Below, piece after piece: positions 12,001 through 21,000 of a DNA stretch of 43,127 bases. Numbering within the stretch: position 1 is the stretch's first letter; each line of letters starts with the position of its first letter. Origin of the DNA: a virus (lineage: Duplodnaviria; Heunggongvirae; Uroviricota; Caudoviricetes); the IMG/VR virus record IMGVR_UViG_2562617113_000019. One strand, given 5' to 3'. Position numbers: made by a program.

Positions 12001-15000
12001 GAGCCGAAAGTTGTATCGGTAGCGAAAACATCTGGTAAAGCCTTTCCTCAGCCAGCCGGTGTTGCGTTACCAGTACAGGAAGCGGCAACACAGGAAGAAA
12101 TTAAAACAGATACTGTGGGGGACATTGTGCAGTCACTACCATCGTTCACTGAAACGCGAGCCAATGACCTGATTTTACCATCGCTGCAAATGGCAAACCG
12201 CGAACTGCGCCGGGCGAAAAGTCATGTCCAGAAGTGGGAGCGAGTCTGCGCCGCTCTGCGTGAGCTGAACAAGCACCAGGATATTGTCCGACAGATTGTC
12301 GATTCCTCCAGTCGTATTGTGTCGGAAAAGTGATTCCTGGGGAGGGCTTATGGCAAAAGTATTTACACAGGAAGAGCGAGGAAAAAATTAAAGGGCAGAT
12401 TGTTGATCTCGTACGCCAGAGCGGGCGAGAGACGTTACGACAACTGGAAGCTAAAATGGGGGCAACCAGATATCTGATAAGTATTCTCGCCAAAGAGCTG
12501 GTTTCGAGTGGTGAAGTATACAACTCTGGCTATGGGTTATTCCCGTCAGAACAGGCTCGTAAGGACTGGCAAAACGCCCGCAAAAAACTATCGAGGGCAA
12601 AGTCGAAGGAACCGGCTATGGTTGATCCTGACCTTATCTGGTCATTACCAGACGGAGAAATACGCCGCTACGACAGGTGTCAGAACATAATTTGTCGCGA
12701 GTGCCGGAAGAGTGAAGTTATGCAGCGTGTATTAGCATTTTATCAGGGAAATGTTCGGTATTTATTGAAGTGACGAGATTAAAGACCATTAATTCATATG
12801 TGAATTGACATTTTCATGGCACAGGATATAGCTAGCGTGGTTGTCTGTTTTGTACCATAAGCGGAAGTAGCTAACAACAGTTTGTGTGGAGCAACTGGGA
12901 GCAGGTCGGAACCACCGTGAACGAAAAGTAGAAAATCAACATATAGTAAAGCTTGAAAAATTAGTTCAACTATTATTATAGTGCTTTCGATGTTGTTAAA
13001 TGCGATCTGAAATCACTAAGAAAACTCGCTATAACGGCGTGCAAAGATTACTTAACTGAAATATTGATCTGTATATTTAAACGGAGTTAGTATGTCAGAC
13101 ACACAGAAAAACATTGATTTAATAAAAGATATTAATGAAATAGCCGAGAAAGGCATACAGGCTTTTGAATTGTCATATAGTGAATCTGGGCACCCAAATC
13201 TTCACGAGCCACTTTTGAGATGGTGCGATTTTATTTTACGATATATACCCCCAGTGAAACGTGATGTTTTTAAATCGGATCGATTCACTAAAAACATTCC
13301 AGATGATGCAAAAGCGGGATTGCAAAGAATAGAGGGATTATTTACTTCAGGTGGCGATGTCAATCCTTACCAGAGTAAAACATTGACATTATTGAATGAC
13401 ACAAGCGGTAAAAAAGCTGCGCAAAGAACGGATAACCTTTGGGCTGATTGGGGCATTCACCATCTTCACCTGTCATTAAACCCAGTTGGTTCAGGTGAAA
13501 AATACTCAGACCGCTCAGAATGGGTGTTATTCCTGAAGGTGTATGCTAATGCTGTTTTATTTATTGATATAAAAAGCCATGATAAAGACATCGAACCCAA
13601 CCTTTTTTCTCAAAAAGACTTGATTGAAACATTTATACGCAACTGGCCAGATGAGGCAGGAGTGTATGAGATGAAAGGTGTTTCAAAGCTGGCAATTAAC
13701 CAACCAATTACCGATGCAGACATCGCAAAATTGAGAAAGAATGGAATAAATCTCCCCTTTGAGGCAAACGGGAAGGTTTATGCACCATTAGGTATGGGAA
13801 TGACGACTGCTGTAACCTCTATGAGAGTTTCAATTTATAGAGATAAAATATGTAATTGGGCTAAACAAATAGAAGGCATATTCATGGATGAAGATGGCCC
13901 ATTCCTGAAGGAAGTGAAATCTCAGAATGTACAAAACCCTAAATTCGAATTGTATATGTATGATGGTGATATGTTCGGCATTACTGAGAAAAATATTGAT
14001 AAAGGCTGGATATTCACTAGAGGTAAATCCGACAACGTTTTCAGCTGTTTATTTGACTCATTGATGCCTGTGTGGGCCAGTCCTGTTGTATTGCAGTACT
14101 GGAAAAAGAACCCATAACAAAACGGTTTGACGAACCGAGACCCTCATGCCACCGTTCATATGGCGCGACGAATAATGATAAGTATGCCGCGCCATACGTT
14201 CAAATAAACATACAAGCATCAGTATAAACGTGCAGGCATACCGGTGCTTATATGATTAGACACATCATGGGGTTGACCTGCTCCCTGTTAATTATCACAG
14301 AACGCTTTTAGCAATGTCTGCTCATCGCTCACAGCGGACCTTCAACTCTGGTAACTTGTCCGCTTCGTGCCAAGAGCGGACATCAGGTACATCTTTTCTG
14401 GTCATACCTAGCAGTAGTCTAGCGTCAATTCGCATAAATAAGATACCGTTAGAAATACAAAGATCTGTTAATATGCAAATGAAGTAATAAATGGTGAAGC
14501 CCCAACTTACAGAGAGGAGCATCGCACCGTGAAGCTGTACATAATTGGAAACGGATTTGATTTACACCATGGTCTTGATACCAGCTATTTTTCTTTTGCC
14601 TATTTTCTGCGATCGCGCCAGAGGGATTCGTACAACAACTTAGTTGAGTTTGTCGGTTTCACAGACCTACCTGAAAATCTTGATGAACTGAATAAGGATG
14701 AACATCCTCTGTGGTCTGAATTTGAAAGTAATCTGGCATGGTTAAATTCTCAGGCCGTACTGGATGCATTTACCGATTCTCTCCCAAATCTGGGTGACCC
14801 AGATTTTCGTGATAGATACTGGCATGCTTTTGATATTGAAATGCAGCGAATCCTTGAAAATTTAACTGATGATCTTTTCACCCAGTTTACGTCGTTCATT
14901 TCCCAAGTTAAATATCCAGAGCTTACCTCTGATAAAACACTGCAACTATACAGTAACGGCATATTTATAAATTTCAATTACACCAGAACTATTGAGTACT

Positions 15001-18000: not shown

Positions 18001-21000
18001 TTAGCAGAATATCATTCCCAATGATCGGATTAAACCCAATCAATGTCTCAATGAATCTATCATAATTCGTTGTAATAACTGAGCCTATATTTCGACTTGC
18101 TTTTGCAAATAACTCCATTTCTGTTGCATACTTATCACCATCATTTATTTGATGTAGGTCTACAAGTTCTGATATAAATATTTTCATGCGACTGGCAGAG
18201 TAGTTTCCTGAAGCTGCATACTCGTAGTATTTGTCATTTATTCTTTTAAACTTACCGTTCCTATCAGCTTCTAATAATCTATTGAACTCTGTTTCAATTT
18301 CGCTAGCTACCTTTGGTAGATCAATTTCACCTAAAGAATTAGCGTTCCTGCCTGCGGCGTCAAAATAAAAGTCATGACTCCCTTTCATTTCGTAAACAAT
18401 CTTTTTTAGAAGTTCTGACCATGAGTAAGTGCCTACCAGATATCTCCGGCTAAACCCTGCACCAACAAACACTACTGGATGGTTTACGTAAGACTCCATG
18501 AATTTACTAAGATTCATTTATCCTTCTCCATAACAGGAATATTTATAGCTGATAAAGCATACAGCATCTTCGACGAAGATGCCTTCAATTTTGTTCACTC
18601 ATCATCCTATTCTACCTGTTTCATCACACAACAAGTCCAGAACAGCATTATGTATGCCATTGGGAGGGCATATGTATTAAATTAAGTTACGGTCGCAATG
18701 TCTTACATTCATCAAAAGTGAGGTAATATATATAATTTAGCAAAACTAACATTGTCACCACTGCCAGTTAGGGTGATGGGAATAAACAAGGCCTACAGGG
18801 ACTCTCAGCAACTGAACCCTCAGGTCGTTGATAATAATCCTCTCAGTTGATTATTTTCCCTCAGATCACTGAGAAATACAGGCTATTTCCGCTTTTCGCT
18901 CAAAGCGGACTAAAATGTTGGCTTGTGTCTGACTTAGCGCATTTTAGGAAGTGCTGGTGGTGACGGTTTGTTGTGTTGCACAGAAAAAATAGAATAAGTA
19001 CACCAAATAGTTTTATTGAGTCACCAGTGAGACATCCACATATTTATCAGCATATGCGAGTGTCAAATGCAGGAGGTTAACGTGCTGGTTGCGAAATGTG
19101 CACTGGCTATTGCGTTTGTGATGGCAATCTATGGTCTTGCTATTGTTCTTATGGATCACCTTTCTGATTGATTTCATATTGGCGAGGTAACGGGAGTTAA
19201 GTAGAATAGCTGCGGGTGCTTGAGGCTGTCTGCCTCGGGCATGAACACCAAAGGCAGATAGAGAAAAGCCCCAGTTAACATTACGCGTCCGGCAAGACGC
19301 TTAACATTAATCTGAGGCCACATCTATGCTTTGCATACGTAGATTAGCCTCTTACCGACCAAAAGGTCAAGGAGAAGCAGGCTATGAAGCAGCAAAAGGC
19401 GATGTTAATCGCCCTGATCGTCATCTGTTTAACCGTCGTTGTGACGGCACTGGTAACGAGGAAAGACCTCTGCGAGGTACGAATCCGAACCGGCCAGACG
19501 GAGGTCGCTGTCTTCACAGCTTACGAACCTGAGGAGTAAGAGACCCGGCGGGGGAGAAATCCCCCGCCACCTCTGATGTGTCAGGCATCCTCAACGCACC
19601 CGTACTTACCCGCTTCGGCGGGTTTTTTGTTGTGGTGGAGAAATTAGCTTTTTGTGTACTCTTTTAGCAGTAAGTCTTGAGGGACTGATTGTTGTAAATA
19701 GAATCGTGTTTGCTTAGTTAGCGCGCAGGGAGAAGAGGGATGGACCCTTCAGGGGAACGCTATTAATCTGGAAAATTCTATTTATGGACTTCAAGAAGTT
19801 GCGCAAAATTATTAATAAAGATGGCCTCTATGCAGTGCGCGTTGAAAATGGGGAAATTATTAGTTGTTACTGCATTCATTGCTCACGGGCTTTGCAACAG
19901 CCTAGTGGGGCTATGTTAATATATCTCTTGAATGGGCATGTGACGGACGGATTTATGTTGCGTGAAGATGAATTTGTCACATCATTACGGACATTAAAAG
20001 AAATTGGATTAAAAGCTGGCTTTTCTGCTTTTGAAGACGATTGAACTCATCTATAATTCAGCGCAGGGTTGACCCCCTGCTGAGTAACACCGTGCCACCG
20101 GAGAAAGCCGATGGCACATATACAACTGATCAAACATACCTCTTCTGGATTACTGCTCCCGGCAACATCGGAGAGTTGCGAATTCTTGCATCAAATAAAA
20201 ATAGGTGAGTGGATACACGCTGATTTTAAGCGCGTTCGTAACTACGCATTTCACAAGCGTTTTTTCAAACTCCTGCAACTCGGATTCGATTACTGGACTC
20301 CTGTCGGTGGGGCGATCACCTCTCGTGAACGAAAACTTGTGTCCGGTTTCGTTGATTATCTGTGTGACTCGGTCGGTCGGGAACATACGCCAGCCCTGAG
20401 TGATGCCGCAGAACAATATCTGAATACCATTGCGATACGCAGAACCTGCGATACGGCATTGCTAAAGTCATTTGATGCTTTCCGTGAATGGGTAACTATT
20501 GAGGCCGGATTTTACACCGAGCATTTTTATCCGGACGGTAGCCGTGGACGCAGGGCAAGATCTATCGCGTTTGCAAATATGGACGATACCGAGTTTCAGC
20601 AGGTTTATAAATCCGTACTGAATGTGCTTTGGAACTGGATCCTGTTCCGTAAATTTTCCTCACCGGAACAAGTCGAAAATGTTGCTGCGCAGCTGCTGGA
20701 GTTTGCGTAATGGTGGATTTGCGTAAAGCTGCTAAAGGCCATATGTGTACAGTCAGAATCCCCGGTTACTGCAATCACAATCCTGAAACATCTGTGCTGG
20801 CGCACTACAGGCTAGCGGGGACGTGTGGAATGGCGATAAAACCACACGATATGCAGGCAGCGATTGCCTGTAACTCATGTCACGATCTAATCGATGGGCG
20901 GGTAAAAACCAGCGATTACACCAAAGAAGAATTGCACCTGATGCATGCAGAAGGTGTTTTTCGCACGCAAGAAATCTGGAGAAATGAGGGATATTTATGA

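What the first reader, a model, noticed from the sequence alone, without database searches (positions are those of the whole stretch)
12835..18992. A hairpin-containing repeat marks the right end of every island cassette and recurs weakly at other module junctions
Four same-orientation copies follow the four cassettes, regardless of gene orientation:
- A (14316): GTCTGCTCATCGCTCACAGCGGACCTTCAACTCTGGTAACTTGTCCGCTTCGTGCCAAGAGCGGACATCAG
- B (16709): TTCCGCTCCTCGCTCAGCGCGGACCTTCTGCCCAGTGAGCTAGTCCGCTACGAGCCAGAAGTGGAGC
- C (18887): TTCCGCTTTTCGCTCAAAGCGGACTAAAATG...
- D (15560): GTCCGCCGTTCGCTCATATTGGACCTGAAGACACGCTGGTTGGTCCCC

The shared core is a stem, (G)TCCGCT / AGCGGA(C), around a TCGCTCA-containing loop. 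In copy A the unit is duplicated in tandem. Copies C and D share a tail (GCTGGT..TTTGT..AAAATAG), and a half-copy of that tail sits at the left island border (12835-12861).

Fragments also occur in the kilR-sieB gap, where GCGGACATCAG at 7201-7211 is identical to 14376-14386. An inverted fragment lies at the right edge of the artAB-like moron (23379-23394).

The pattern resembles cassette-boundary recombination sites (integron-attC-like in logic, not in sequence) or conserved RNA elements. I do not recognise it as REP, ERIC or any other named enterobacterial repeat.
Basis: seen in the sequence. Interest (0 to 1): 0.7.

Follow-up and report, generated by a model that had tools for sequence, protein, structure and literature searches.

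The report
Paired recombination sites flanking defence cassettes
The repeat is real: it is a pair of short inverted-repeat sites at whose centres anti-phage gene cassettes have been precisely swapped between unrelated prophages and genomic islands of enterobacteria, which points to a largely uncharacterised site-specific cassette-exchange system.

Summary
The repeat is confirmed and far above chance (6 matches against 0.03 expected). It is a ~70-nt unit, not a simple hairpin. H1 is GTCCGCT-yy-TCGCTCA-n-AGCGGAC. A ~18-nt spacer follows, then H2, GTCCGCT-yy-GTGCCA-rr-AGCGGAC, an inverted H1-like site with a different centre.

Five units bound four cassettes (PD-T4-7, AbiH, unknown, SIR2/PDC-S25) between the DUF977 gene and hok/sok of a Rac-like prophage.

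The same units form same-orientation arrays in many Enterobacterales genera, in at least 120 viral contigs, in CP4-like islands and in Proteus prophages. They also flank fun(Z) of phage P2.

Where two loci share one flank only, homology stops at the TCGCTCA or GTGCCA centre. At least eight unrelated cassettes occupy the same prophage slot, with both junctions at these centres.

A 200-aa catalytic-domain-only tyrosine recombinase sits between an H1 centre and an H2 centre. It occurs in 848 of 5426 E. coli genomes but not in this window.

Best reading: double-stranded, heterospecific recombination sites that allow integron-like or RMCE-like cassette exchange.

There is no support for an RNA or terminator role, none for stem covariation, and none for the fragments at 7201 and 23379.

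A 2004 paper on P2 that I could not read may anticipate the sites.

The parts
12806..12828 (+). Degenerate H1-like element of the left-border unit (contains TGGCACAG, the inverted partner of the H2 centre). Tentative.
   Evidence: Read from the sequence. The same arrangement, ATGGCACAG, about 20 nt, then H2, is seen at the left border of the P2 Z/fun slot and in related prophage backbones.
12843..12866 (+). H2 site of the left island border (GTCTGTTTTGTACCATAAGCGGAA; centre GTACCA at 12852-12857).
   Evidence: H2 pattern hit and HMM hit at E=8e-4. In more than 1000 E. coli genomes the homology on the DUF977 side ends at 12857-12880.
12858..14324 (+). Cassette 1: PD-T4-7 defence gene (CDS 13092-14117).
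   Evidence: PADLOC PD-T4-7, E=6e-141. Bounded by the H2 centre and the next H1 centre.
14316..14339 (+). H1 of unit A (GTCTGCTCATCGCTCACAGCGGAC; centre TCGCTCA at 14325-14331).
   Evidence: whole-unit HMM E=7e-21.
14332..14366 (+). Linker A: inner arm of H1, 18-nt spacer and inner arm of H2. This position is the one occupied elsewhere by the recombinase gene.
   Evidence: Linkers are shared between units whose outer flanks are unrelated. The int module occupies the same position in L002, L004, L071 and L138-L143.
14358..14381 (+). H2 of unit A (GTCCGCTTCGTGCCAAGAGCGGAC; centre GTGCCA at 14367-14372).
   Evidence: 0 mismatches; minus-strand hit.
14373..15568 (+). Cassette 2: AbiH (CDS 14529-15506).
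   Evidence: Pfam AbiH, E=3e-58; PADLOC AbiH. In 60 genomes homology to the window starts only at 15558-15569.
15560..15583 (+). H1 of unit D (GTCCGCCGTTCGCTCATATTGGAC; centre at 15569-15575).
   Evidence: L125 and L126 share everything from TCGCTCA rightwards with the window and nothing to its left.
15602..15625 (+). Degenerate H2 of unit D (GTCCCCTTTGTACCAAAATAGATG; centre GTACCA at 15611-15616).
Evidence: Read from the sequence. The unit HMM hit 15557-15619 covers model positions 3-65.
15617..16717 (+). Cassette 3: 290-aa protein of unknown function (ORF 15747-16619).
   Evidence: The same cassette lies in CP4-like islands after different upstream cassettes (L125, L126).
16709..16732 (+). 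H1 of unit B (TTCCGCTCCTCGCTCAGCGCGGAC; centre at 16718-16724).
   Evidence: 0 mismatches; the right end of cassette 3 is shared up to TCGCTCA, after which the loci diverge.
16751..16774 (+). H2 of unit B with a variant centre (GTCCGCTACGAGCCAGAAGTGGAG; centre GAGCCA at 16760-16765).
   Evidence: The same variant unit travels with the SIR2 cassette in a P2-like prophage.
16766..18895 (-). Cassette 4: SIR2-family candidate defence gene PDC-S25 (CDS 17009-18517, minus strand).
   Evidence: PADLOC PDC-S25, E=7e-143. Window 16706-18911 is 95.7% identical in 12 genomes, for example in the P2 G-FI hotspot of strain 90-1.
18887..18910 (+). H1 of unit C, the right island border (TTCCGCTTTTCGCTCAAAGCGGAC; centre at 18896-18902).
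   Evidence: 0 mismatches. Matches to the right flank alone begin at window 18885-18897 in dozens of genomes.
18945..18992 (+). Possible degenerate H2 of unit C (GCTGGTGGTGACGGTTTGTTGTGTTGCACAGAAAAAATAG), separated from H1 by an inserted ~35-nt palindrome. Tentative.
   Evidence: Similarity to the spacer and H2 of unit D, read from the sequence. No HMM support.

Best explanation
The repeat is a composite site-specific recombination site that delimits exchangeable gene cassettes.

**The sites.** Each unit holds two core-type sites with the same 7-bp inverted arms (GTCCGCT / AGCGGAC) but different, asymmetric centres. H1 has TCGCTCA. H2 has GTGCCA, which reads TGGCAC in H1 orientation and differs from the H1 centre at two positions. 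The arms are probably bound by the same tyrosine recombinase. The unlike centres would allow only H1xH1 and H2xH2 exchange.

**The architecture.** A backbone (prophage, satellite-like island or ICE) carries a slot: ...arm-yy-GTGCCA | cassette | TCGCTCA-n-arm... Successive cassettes are joined by a 32-35-nt linker (inner arm, spacer, inner arm).

**How cassettes move.** Cassettes are replaced by double exchange at H2 and H1, as in engineered recombinase-mediated cassette exchange. Alternatively they are added or removed as circles by a single H1xH1 or H2xH2 event, as in integrons.

**The enzyme.** The likely enzyme is a 200-aa tyrosine recombinase that consists of a catalytic domain only. Its gene sits exactly where a linker would, between an H1 centre and an H2 centre. 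It is absent from this window, so it would act in trans.

**Shown and inferred.** Shown: the architecture, its distribution, the positions of the breakpoints, and the recombinase gene's position and catalytic motifs. Inferred: that the exchange is enzymatic, that this recombinase performs it, and that the substrate is double-stranded DNA.
For: **1. Repeat and arrays**
- The repeat gives 6 matches against 0.03 expected; the H2 pattern gives 6 against 0.10.
- In 53 multi-unit loci from many Enterobacterales genera, 95 of 98 adjacent units share orientation, with a median spacing of 1554 bp.
- In IMG/VR contigs 67 of 68 adjacent units share orientation.

**2. The centres are conserved and distinct**
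- TCGCTCA is the centre in 25 of 44 H1 sites that were not selected by the retrieval pattern. GTGCCA is the centre in 44 of 60 H2 sites.

**3. Breakpoints**
- L002 and L126 share the TonB/ABC operon up to TCGCTCA, then diverge.
- L125 and L126 share cassette 3 from TCGCTCA onward.
- L002 and L126 share sequence from GTGCCA onward.
- E. coli L004 and Enterobacter L032 share a cassette from GTGCCA onward.
- Among 302 H1 and 435 H2 sites, pairs that share the downstream side have their last mismatch at -13 to -1 in 134 of 145 cases, and at the yy positions in 35 of them. No pair that shares the upstream side diverges before +6.
- At H2, 29 of 77 pairs diverge at +6 or +7.

**4. Cassette replacement in one slot**
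- In 38 locus pairs both backbone flanks are shared and the interior is unrelated. At least 8 different cassettes of 1460-4102 bp occupy the DUF977-hokD slot, with junctions at the two centres.

**5. The window's own borders**
- All borders coincide with the sites.
- The SIR2 cassette recurs in the G-FI hotspot of a P2-like prophage.
- fun(Z) of phage P2 is flanked by H2 and H1.

**6. The recombinase**
- It matches Pfam Phage_integrase at E=2e-17 over residues 35-184 of 200.
- HxxR, H and Y align with XerD.
- It is always bounded by an H1 centre on the left and an H2 centre on the right, in at least 6 different contexts across E. coli, Erwinia and Proteus.
- It is present in 848 of 5426 E. coli genomes and is 77-95% identical across Gammaproteobacteria.
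Against: - There is no recombinase gene in this window or in any of 120 viral stretches that carry the sites. Most arrays lack it within 8 kb.
- Genome-level co-occurrence of sites and recombinase could not be measured.
- No biochemical evidence exists, and cleavage positions are unknown.
- In two upstream-shared pairs (L017/L044 and L036/L098) the yy dinucleotide goes with the right-hand partner. The exchanged interval is therefore not strictly the 7-bp centre.
- Because the arms are conserved in all copies, many pairs bracket the crossover only to about 24 bp.
- Short-homology recombination cannot be excluded by sequence alone, and the window encodes RecE.
- The inner half-sites next to the int gene are degenerate.
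Confidence: 0.62

Rival explanations
1. The units are conserved for some other reason, for example as binding sites of a nucleoid or regulatory protein or as insulators. Cassette exchange would then be ordinary short-homology recombination (RecA, or phage RecET/Red) that uses them as portable homology.
For: - The window's prophage encodes RecE.
- No recombinase gene lies near most arrays or in any viral contig examined.
- H1 is the best-conserved ~24 bp of the unit, so homology-driven crossovers would also concentrate there.
Against: - In the informative pairs the crossovers are bracketed by polymorphic positions that directly flank 6-7-bp centres. That is far below the usual minimal homology.
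- The layout of two inverted arms around an invariant asymmetric centre, in two mutually exclusive versions, is that of tyrosine-recombinase core sites.
- A tyrosine recombinase gene is itself bounded by the same two centres.
Confidence: 0.17
2. The unit is a miniature, non-autonomous derivative (MITE- or REPIN-like) of a small selfish element that carries the recombinase gene between inverted ends. It spreads by inserting between genes of AT-rich islands, and cassette boundaries are a by-product.
For: - The int module and the 32-35-nt linkers occupy the same position between an H1 centre and an H2 centre.
- Identical linkers occur between unrelated flanks.
- H2 is an inverted H1-like copy, which gives REPIN-like symmetry.
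Against: - The outer arms and the yy/rr positions co-vary with the adjacent cassette, not with the linker.
- Backbones carry half-sites (H2 on the left, H1 on the right) with no linker.
- No target duplications are seen.
- Units are confined to cargo slots of mobile elements and are absent from, for example, K-12 CP4-57.
Confidence: 0.1
3. The sites act as folded single strands, like integron attC sites, during replication, conjugation or phage DNA entry. H1 and H2 would pair with each other or fold on themselves.
For: - Unit A folds into a long hairpin, and H1 of unit C into a stem-loop, each with z about -3.4.
- In some units the inner arms of H1 and H2 change together, GCAGAC with GTCTGC (3 double changes at pair 26-51).
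Against: - Neither fold shows significant covariation. The observed values are reached by many shuffles.
- Units B and D do not fold better than shuffled sequence.
- The sites are conserved in sequence rather than in structure, the opposite of attC.
Confidence: 0.08
4. The hairpins are RNA elements (terminators, processing sites or stabilisers) at the 3' ends of cassette transcripts.
For: They lie downstream of three of the four genes, and each contains a 7-bp GC-rich stem.
Against: - No T-tract follows them, and no terminator is called at any unit.
- No Rfam family matches.
- There is no covariation.
- Their orientation is independent of gene orientation: the SIR2 gene is on the other strand.
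- Breakpoints fall inside the 'loop'.
Confidence: 0.03

Closest known systems
Integrons (IntI integrase, attI, attC gene cassettes)
   Same: - Arrays of mostly single-gene cassettes, each followed by a recombination site in a fixed orientation.
- Crossover at a fixed point within the site.
- A tyrosine recombinase.
- Many arrays without a neighbouring integrase, like CALINs.
- Defence genes as cargo.
   Different: - The sites here are conserved in sequence, not in structure. They have no R''/L''/L'/R' boxes and no GTTRRRY motif.
- There are two alternating centres instead of one.
- The recombinase has 200 aa and no core-binding domain. It scores 17 bits against integron-integrase models whose cut-offs are 265-435.
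- Gene orientation is free.
- No attI/Pc platform is present.
- The arrays sit inside phages and islands of Enterobacterales.
pdif modules of Acinetobacter plasmids (XerC/XerD-dependent; own knowledge: Blackwell and Hall 2017)
   Same: - Discrete gene modules flanked by inversely oriented recombination sites that alternate along the DNA.
- Modules are exchanged between replicons.
- The enzyme is supplied in trans.
   Different: - The sites are not dif-like. They lack the 11-6-11 XerC/XerD arms.
- A dedicated small recombinase travels with the modules.
- The cargo is mainly anti-phage genes in prophages and islands, not resistance genes on plasmids.
Engineered recombinase-mediated cassette exchange (heterospecific lox or FRT pairs)
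   Same: - A segment flanked by two sites with identical arms but incompatible spacers is swapped by double reciprocal exchange without disturbing the backbone.
- This is the pattern seen in 38 locus pairs.
   Different: - RMCE is a laboratory design.
- Here the arrangement is natural, the arms are 7-9 bp (up to about 17 bp on the cassette side), and the mechanism is inferred, not shown.
Defence hotspots of P2-like phages (Rousset et al. 2022, PMC9122126; Touchon et al. 2026, PMC13586616; Nilsson et al. 2004, Mol Biol Evol 21:1, not readable here)
   Same: - The P2 G-FI (Z/fun) hotspot is one of the slots. fun(Z) of P2 itself is flanked by H2 and H1.
- The window's SIR2 cassette occurs there.
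- The title of the 2004 paper proposes site-specific recombination at P2 variable loci.
   Different: - The 2022 and 2026 papers give no exchange mechanism. They discuss cos ends, homologous recombination and illegitimate recombination.
- I found no description of the two-centre site, of the small recombinase, or of the link to lambdoid hotspots, CP4-like islands and Proteus prophages.
- What the 2004 paper described could not be checked.
FimB/FimE-type small tyrosine recombinases
   Same: Proteins of about 200 aa with essentially only the catalytic domain, acting on short inverted repeats.
   Different: - Only weak similarity: NCBIfam invertase models at E=2e-6, 27 bits against a cut-off of 222.
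- Fim recombinases invert one promoter segment. Here the sites bound exchangeable cassettes.

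Membership tests
Integron | IntI-type integrase (with its characteristic extra domain) next to the array | tested here: not met
   The window has no tyrosine recombinase homologous to the associated int. The associated 200-aa recombinase scores 17-18 bits against integron-integrase models with cut-offs of 265 and 435.
Integron | attC sites: structure-conserved, sequence-variable imperfect palindromes with R''/L''/L'/R' boxes and a GTTRRRY core | tested here: not met
   The units are conserved in sequence (mean column identity 78%), contain no GTTRRRY motif, and show no covariation.
Integron | Cassette array with sites in one orientation and crossover at a fixed point within the site | tested here: met
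   95 of 98 and 67 of 68 adjacent units share orientation. Breakpoints fall at the centres.
pdif / Xer modules | dif-like 28-bp site (XerC arm 11, spacer 6, XerD arm 11) | tested here: not met
   H1 and H2 (7-bp arms GTCCGCT/AGCGGAC, 10 nt between them) show no resemblance to GGTGCGCATAA-N6-TTATGTTAAAT. This was a direct reading against the dif consensus, which I quote from my own knowledge.
pdif / Xer modules | Modules flanked by inversely oriented sites that alternate along the DNA | tested here: met
   The order H2 | cassette | H1 - linker - H2 | cassette | H1 holds in the window and in L002, L004, L125, L126, L138 and L145.
Core-type site of a tyrosine recombinase (generic) | Two inverted binding arms around a 6-8-bp asymmetric overlap that is identical in recombining partners | tested here: met
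   Arms GTCCGCT/AGCGGAC. The centre is TCGCTCA in 120 of 139 classified H1 sites (25 of 44 unselected ones) and GTGCCA in 44 of 60 H2 sites.
Core-type site of a tyrosine recombinase (generic) | Staggered cleavage at the edges of the overlap by a bound recombinase | not testable with these tools
   This needs in vitro cleavage or suicide-substrate mapping.
Tyrosine recombinase family (the 200-aa protein of L002, L004, L071 and L138-L143; not encoded in the window) | Phage_integrase catalytic domain with the R..K..HxxR..H/W..Y residues | tested here: met
   Pfam PF00589, 63.9 bits against a cut-off of 27.1. HSMRR, LLGH and RY align with H244/R247, H270 and Y279 of XerD. LRGCDL (first Arg) and QQKTG (Lys) were assigned by reading the sequence.
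REP / BIME / REPIN | Extragenic palindromes scattered through the core genome, linked to a RAYT transposase, with the REP consensus | tested here: not met
   The sequence is unlike REP. Units occur only in cargo regions of prophages and islands. K-12 CP4-57 has none. No RAYT gene lies nearby.
Intrinsic terminator | GC-rich stem-loop followed by a T-tract | tested here: not met
   None of the 9 terminator-like sites in 12700-19100 coincides with a unit.
Known structured RNA (Rfam) | Match to a curated covariance model | tested here: not met
   The window matches only RalA and sok at gathering score. Nothing relevant appears at E<=5 in 12700-19100.

The most novel reading that the evidence does not exclude
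Enterobacterial prophages (P2-like, Rac/lambdoid, Proteus phages), CP4-type islands, ICEs and plasmids share a common 'landing pad'. It is made of two heterospecific sites, H2 and H1, with the same arms and incompatible centres. A mobile, catalytic-domain-only tyrosine recombinase supplied in trans swaps whole defence cassettes between these otherwise unrelated elements. This would be a natural recombinase-mediated cassette-exchange system. It would supply the missing mechanism for the rapid turnover of anti-phage systems in phage and island hotspots.
Probability: 0.45. Interest if true: 0.92.

Novelty: new variant of a known kind. Interest (0 to 1): 0.8.

Why it matters
How anti-phage systems move between hotspots of unrelated mobile elements is an acknowledged open question. 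A 2026 analysis of thousands of P2 and P4 elements lists transposons, homologous recombination and illegitimate recombination as unsatisfactory candidates (PMC13586616).

This finding offers a concrete, testable mechanism:
- a defined pair of about 24-bp sites with nucleotide-level junctions;
- a candidate enzyme;
- model strains that carry both, namely CFT073 and Nissle 1917 for the recombinase, and phage P2 for a slot around fun(Z).

It would give a sequence signature for delimiting cassettes, and therefore for discovering new defence genes in prophages, islands and viral metagenomes. It may also yield a compact natural RMCE tool.

Even if the enzyme assignment is wrong, the sites mark cassette borders precisely.

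Tried and rejected
- **Rfam.** Searches at gathering and permissive thresholds found nothing on the units.
- **Covariation.** I tested both the two-hairpin fold (with a spacer hairpin and an outer helix) and the single long hairpin. Neither gave a signal beyond the shuffles.
- **Terminators and folding.** The terminator scan and the folding z-scores did not support a structural RNA or DNA role.
- **Empty site.** BL21(DE3) turned out to be a deletion that truncates DUF977. The QueH locus has only the left site. No H2-to-H1 distance below 275 bp was found in 194 cassettes.
- **K-12 CP4-57.** It has no units.
- **Recombinase structure.** The prediction from a shallow alignment (24 sequences, at least 76% identical) had pLDDT 53.5, too poor for a fold search, so none was run.
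- **PDB sequence search.** It gave only weak XerD and XerA matches.
- **Literature.**
  - Searches by sequence string, protein accession and concept found no description of the sites or of the recombinase.
  - Nilsson et al. 2004 and Odegrip et al. 2006 are not held.
- **Claimed fragments.** Those at 7201-7211 and 23379-23394 were rejected as chance.
- **High-GC matches.** High-GC matches to the H1 pattern lie in a coding context (…GGCATCGGCGACAC-NA-TCCGC…) that recurs in unrelated high-GC phyla and that I read as the ispG gene (my reading, no search run); I set them aside as unrelated.

Full report
**Context**

The window is a Rac-like lambdoid prophage of E. coli.
- Rfam finds RalA at 1557-1735 and sok at 19214-19389.
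- A nearly identical copy (99.8%) lies in strain NADC1036, annotated recE, kilR, sieB, ydaT, DUF1376/replication P, DUF1627, DUF977, then the island, then hokD.
- The stretch between the DUF977 gene (12330-12773) and hok/sok is variable in about 4800 of 5426 complete E. coli genomes. The cargo there includes SIR2, AbiH, SMEK, methyltransferases, AIPR, KwaB and QueH.
- In this window the four genes are PD-T4-7, AbiH, a 290-aa unknown and the SIR2-family candidate PDC-S25.

**The observation**

The pattern TCCGCNNNTCGCTCANNGCGGAC (up to 3 mismatches) occurs six times against 0.03 expected. It hits 14317, 15561, 16710 and 18888 on the plus strand, and 14358 and 16751 on the minus strand. The minus-strand hits show that the second element of copies A and B is an inverted, variant copy, not a tandem duplicate.

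I call the two elements H1 and H2.
- H1 is GTCCGCT-yy-TCGCTCA-n-AGCGGAC.
- H2 is GTCCGCT-yy-GTGCCA-rr-AGCGGAC.
- A spacer of 15-18 nt separates them.

The H2 pattern hits 12843, 14358 and 16751 on the plus strand (0.10 expected in all). Copy D has a degenerate H2 at 15602-15625. The left border carries an H2 at 12843-12866, preceded by a degenerate inverted partner.

The island therefore reads:

unit* | cassette 1 | unit A | cassette 2 | unit D | cassette 3 | unit B | cassette 4 | H1 of unit C

The fragments claimed at 7201-7211 and 23379-23394 get no profile-HMM support even at E<=50.

**Distribution**

- Unit A-like sequence is found in 1452 of 5426 E. coli genomes and unit B-like sequence in 503. 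It is always unannotated intergenic DNA, and it lies at many chromosomal positions.
About 75 come from Enterobacterales (Erwinia, Pantoea, Rahnella, Hafnia, Serratia, Klebsiella, Citrobacter, Enterobacter, Yokenella, Scandinavium, Ewingella and others). The high-GC hits lie in a coding context (…GGCATCGGCGACAC-NA-TCCGC…) that recurs in unrelated high-GC phyla and that I read as the ispG gene (my reading, no search run); I treat them as chance.
- A scan of IMG/VR also hit the limit of 120, and only one of those stretches was high-GC.
- With a profile HMM, 53 non-viral loci hold two or more units. Of 98 adjacent pairs, 95 share orientation, and the median spacing is 1554 bp. In viral loci 67 of 68 adjacent pairs share orientation.
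- Annotated contexts are cargo regions of mobile elements:
  - the PAI-aspV-type island of Nissle and CFT073;
  - CP4-like islands between YfjJ/Gp2-family and GTPase genes;
  - the DUF977-hokD slot;
  - Proteus prophages and islands rich in TIR, SIR2, SMC-like and DUF3800 genes;
  - a P2-like prophage.
- K-12 CP4-57 has none.

**Breakpoints**

This is the decisive evidence.
- The AbiH gene is unique to one genome. Sixty genomes match the window only from 15558-15569 onward, that is, from H1 of unit D.
- Aligned on the site:
  - L126 and L002 share the upstream TonB/ABC operon through ...TCCGCTGT-TCGCTCA and then diverge.
  - L125 and L126 differ upstream (…TCCGCTCC against …TCCGCTGT) and are identical from TCGCTCA onward.
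  - The right end of cassette 3 behaves the same way at unit B.
- Ten discordant pairs from Rahnella, Klebsiella/Enterobacter, Ewingella, Proteus and others place the switch between the yy positions and the inner arm.
- At H2, L002 and L126 share everything from GTGCCA rightwards. L125 and L126 share everything up to GTGCCA. E. coli L004 and Enterobacter L032 share a cassette from GTGCCA onward.
- On 302 H1 and 435 H2 non-redundant sites:
  - Pairs that share the downstream side of H1 have their last sustained mismatch at -13 to -1 in 134 of 145 cases, and at the yy positions in 35 of them.
  - No pair that shares the upstream side of H1 diverges before +6.
  - At H2, 29 of 77 pairs that share the upstream side diverge at +6 or +7.
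- In 38 locus pairs both backbone flanks are shared and the interior is unrelated. The left flank is ...GTCCGCTTT|GTGCCA and the right flank is TCGCTCA|AAGCGGACTAGAAGG... At least eight different cassettes of 1460-4102 bp sit in the same prophage slot. The rr-plus-arm after GTGCCA and the arm-plus-yy before TCGCTCA change together with the cassette.
- For the window itself:
  - Homology on the DUF977 side ends at 12857-12880 in more than 1000 genomes.
  - The SIR2 cassette with its flanking sites (16706-18911) recurs at 95.7% identity in 12 genomes.
  - Matches to the right flank alone begin at 18885-18897.
- In strain 90-1 that cassette lies between genes G and FI of a P2-like prophage. In phage P2 itself, fun(Z) is flanked by H2 (15335-15358) and H1 (17432-17455).

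**Structure or protein site?**

- Neither the two-hairpin fold nor the long hairpin shows covariation beyond shuffles. Most changes are uncompensated.
- Folding z-scores range from -3.5 to +0.1.
- No terminator is called at any unit, and no Rfam family matches.

Identical inverted arms around an invariant, asymmetric 6-7-bp centre is the anatomy of a tyrosine-recombinase core site. That comparison rests on established knowledge of lox, FRT, dif and att cores. The two centres (TCGCTCA, and TGGCAC in the same orientation) differ at two positions, which would make H1 and H2 mutually incompatible. In a subset of units the cassette-side arms extend to about 17 bp: AGCGGAMGTWGCTAACA and its inverse.

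**The candidate enzyme**

Several arrays contain a 603-bp gene annotated 'site-specific integrase' (L002, L004, L071).
- Its product has a Phage_integrase catalytic domain over residues 35-184 of 200 and nothing else.
- It scores far below the Xer, invertase and integron-integrase cut-offs.
- HxxR, H and Y align with XerD.
- In E. coli, Erwinia and Proteus the gene is bounded on the left by ...arm-yy-TCGCTC(A/C) and on the right by ...CAGCCCT-GTGCCA. The outer flanks differ in every context. It therefore occupies the linker position.
- It occurs in 848 of 5426 E. coli genomes and on Pantoea, E. coli and Klebsiella plasmids.
- It is 77-95% identical in Proteus, Providencia, Pantoea, Idiomarina, Cycloclasticus and others, and it sits in marine ICE-like metal-resistance islands.
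- No close homologue (the best match is 58% identical) occurs in deposited phage genomes. It is absent from the 120 viral stretches and from this window.

**Mechanism proposed**

Backbones carry a slot bounded by an H2 half on the left and an H1 half on the right. Cassettes carry the complementary halves. Exchange at like centres either replaces the interior (double exchange, RMCE-like) or adds and removes cassette-plus-linker circles (single exchange, integron-like). The small recombinase acts in trans.

- Shown: the architecture, its distribution, the junction positions, and the recombinase's location and catalytic motifs.
- Inferred: enzymatic exchange, the identity of the enzyme, and a double-stranded substrate.

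The main rival is short-homology recombination. It is disfavoured because the informative junctions are confined to 6-7 bp, but it is not excluded.

**Prior knowledge**

Searches of the held literature by sequence, accession and concept found no description of these sites or of this recombinase.
- Rousset et al. 2022 speculate about cos-end recombination.
- Touchon et al. 2026 state that the mechanism of exchange with other elements is unresolved.
- Nilsson et al. [quoted passage not shown] From its title it may well have noticed the conserved borders of the P2 Z/fun locus.

For that reason I rate the finding a new variant of a known kind (site-specific gene-cassette systems) rather than categorically new.

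**Verdict**

The element belongs to a widespread, mechanistically uncharacterised cassette-exchange system that bears directly on an open question in phage-defence biology.

Noticed in passing
L004:8027-8069 (also L002:3302-3344 and L138:5960-6003): A perfect 15-bp inverted repeat (CATACTCAAATCTCC ... GGAGATTTGAGTATG) covers the Shine-Dalgarno sequence and the ATG of the small recombinase gene. The arrangement is conserved, with a different sequence, in Proteus. It looks like translational or operator control of the recombinase.
   Followed up: partly
window 12860-12905; L047, L036, L081, L151, L174, L247: In a subset of cassettes the cassette-side arm continues as AGCGGAMGTWGCTAACA, then about 10 nt, then CAACGGGGAGCAGGTCA. 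Its inverse (TGTTAGCAAYGTCCGCT) precedes many H1 sites. It may be an accessory binding site or a conserved cassette leader.
   Followed up: partly
window 12817-12824; L146 (phage P2) 15308-15316; L145 5215-5225: The left border of slots in both Rac-like and P2-like backbones carries ATGGCACAG about 20 nt upstream of H2. This is an inverted copy of the H2 centre region. Its role is unknown.
   Followed up: no
window 16751-16774; L145 7046-7069: The H2 next to the SIR2 cassette has a variant centre (GAGCCA here, GAGCAA in the P2-like prophage). The linker and cassette travel together in both hosts. The site may be inactivated, locking the two parts together.
   Followed up: partly
window 1557-1735 and 19214-19389: Rfam matches to RalA (antitoxin sRNA of RalR) and to sok. 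The hok/sok module lies directly to the right of the cassette slot.
   Followed up: no
window 21928-23179 and about 24780-25920: Toxin morons are annotated in the identical genome: a scabin-related ADP-ribosyltransferase with a subtilase-family AB5 B subunit, and an enterotoxin A family protein with an enterotoxin B-like gene downstream of the lysis genes. No H1 or H2 sites flank them.
   Followed up: partly
window about 7460-7950: sieB is annotated as frameshifted in the near-identical NADC1036 prophage (L001 3161-3650).
   Followed up: no
window 10292-10471: Three direct repeats of about 28 nt (CGTAGTAGCTACGATAAAAACCGTAGAA-like) lie inside the DUF1376 replication gene. They are probably origin iterons.
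   Followed up: no
L130-L137 (marine Gammaproteobacteria, e.g. Cycloclasticus): The same recombinase (about 84% identical) sits between an arsenic-resistance operon and copper-resistance modules of an ICE-like element. An H2-like site lies 18 nt after its stop codon, but no H1/H2 arrays are nearby. The system is therefore not restricted to defence cargo or to Enterobacterales.
   Followed up: partly
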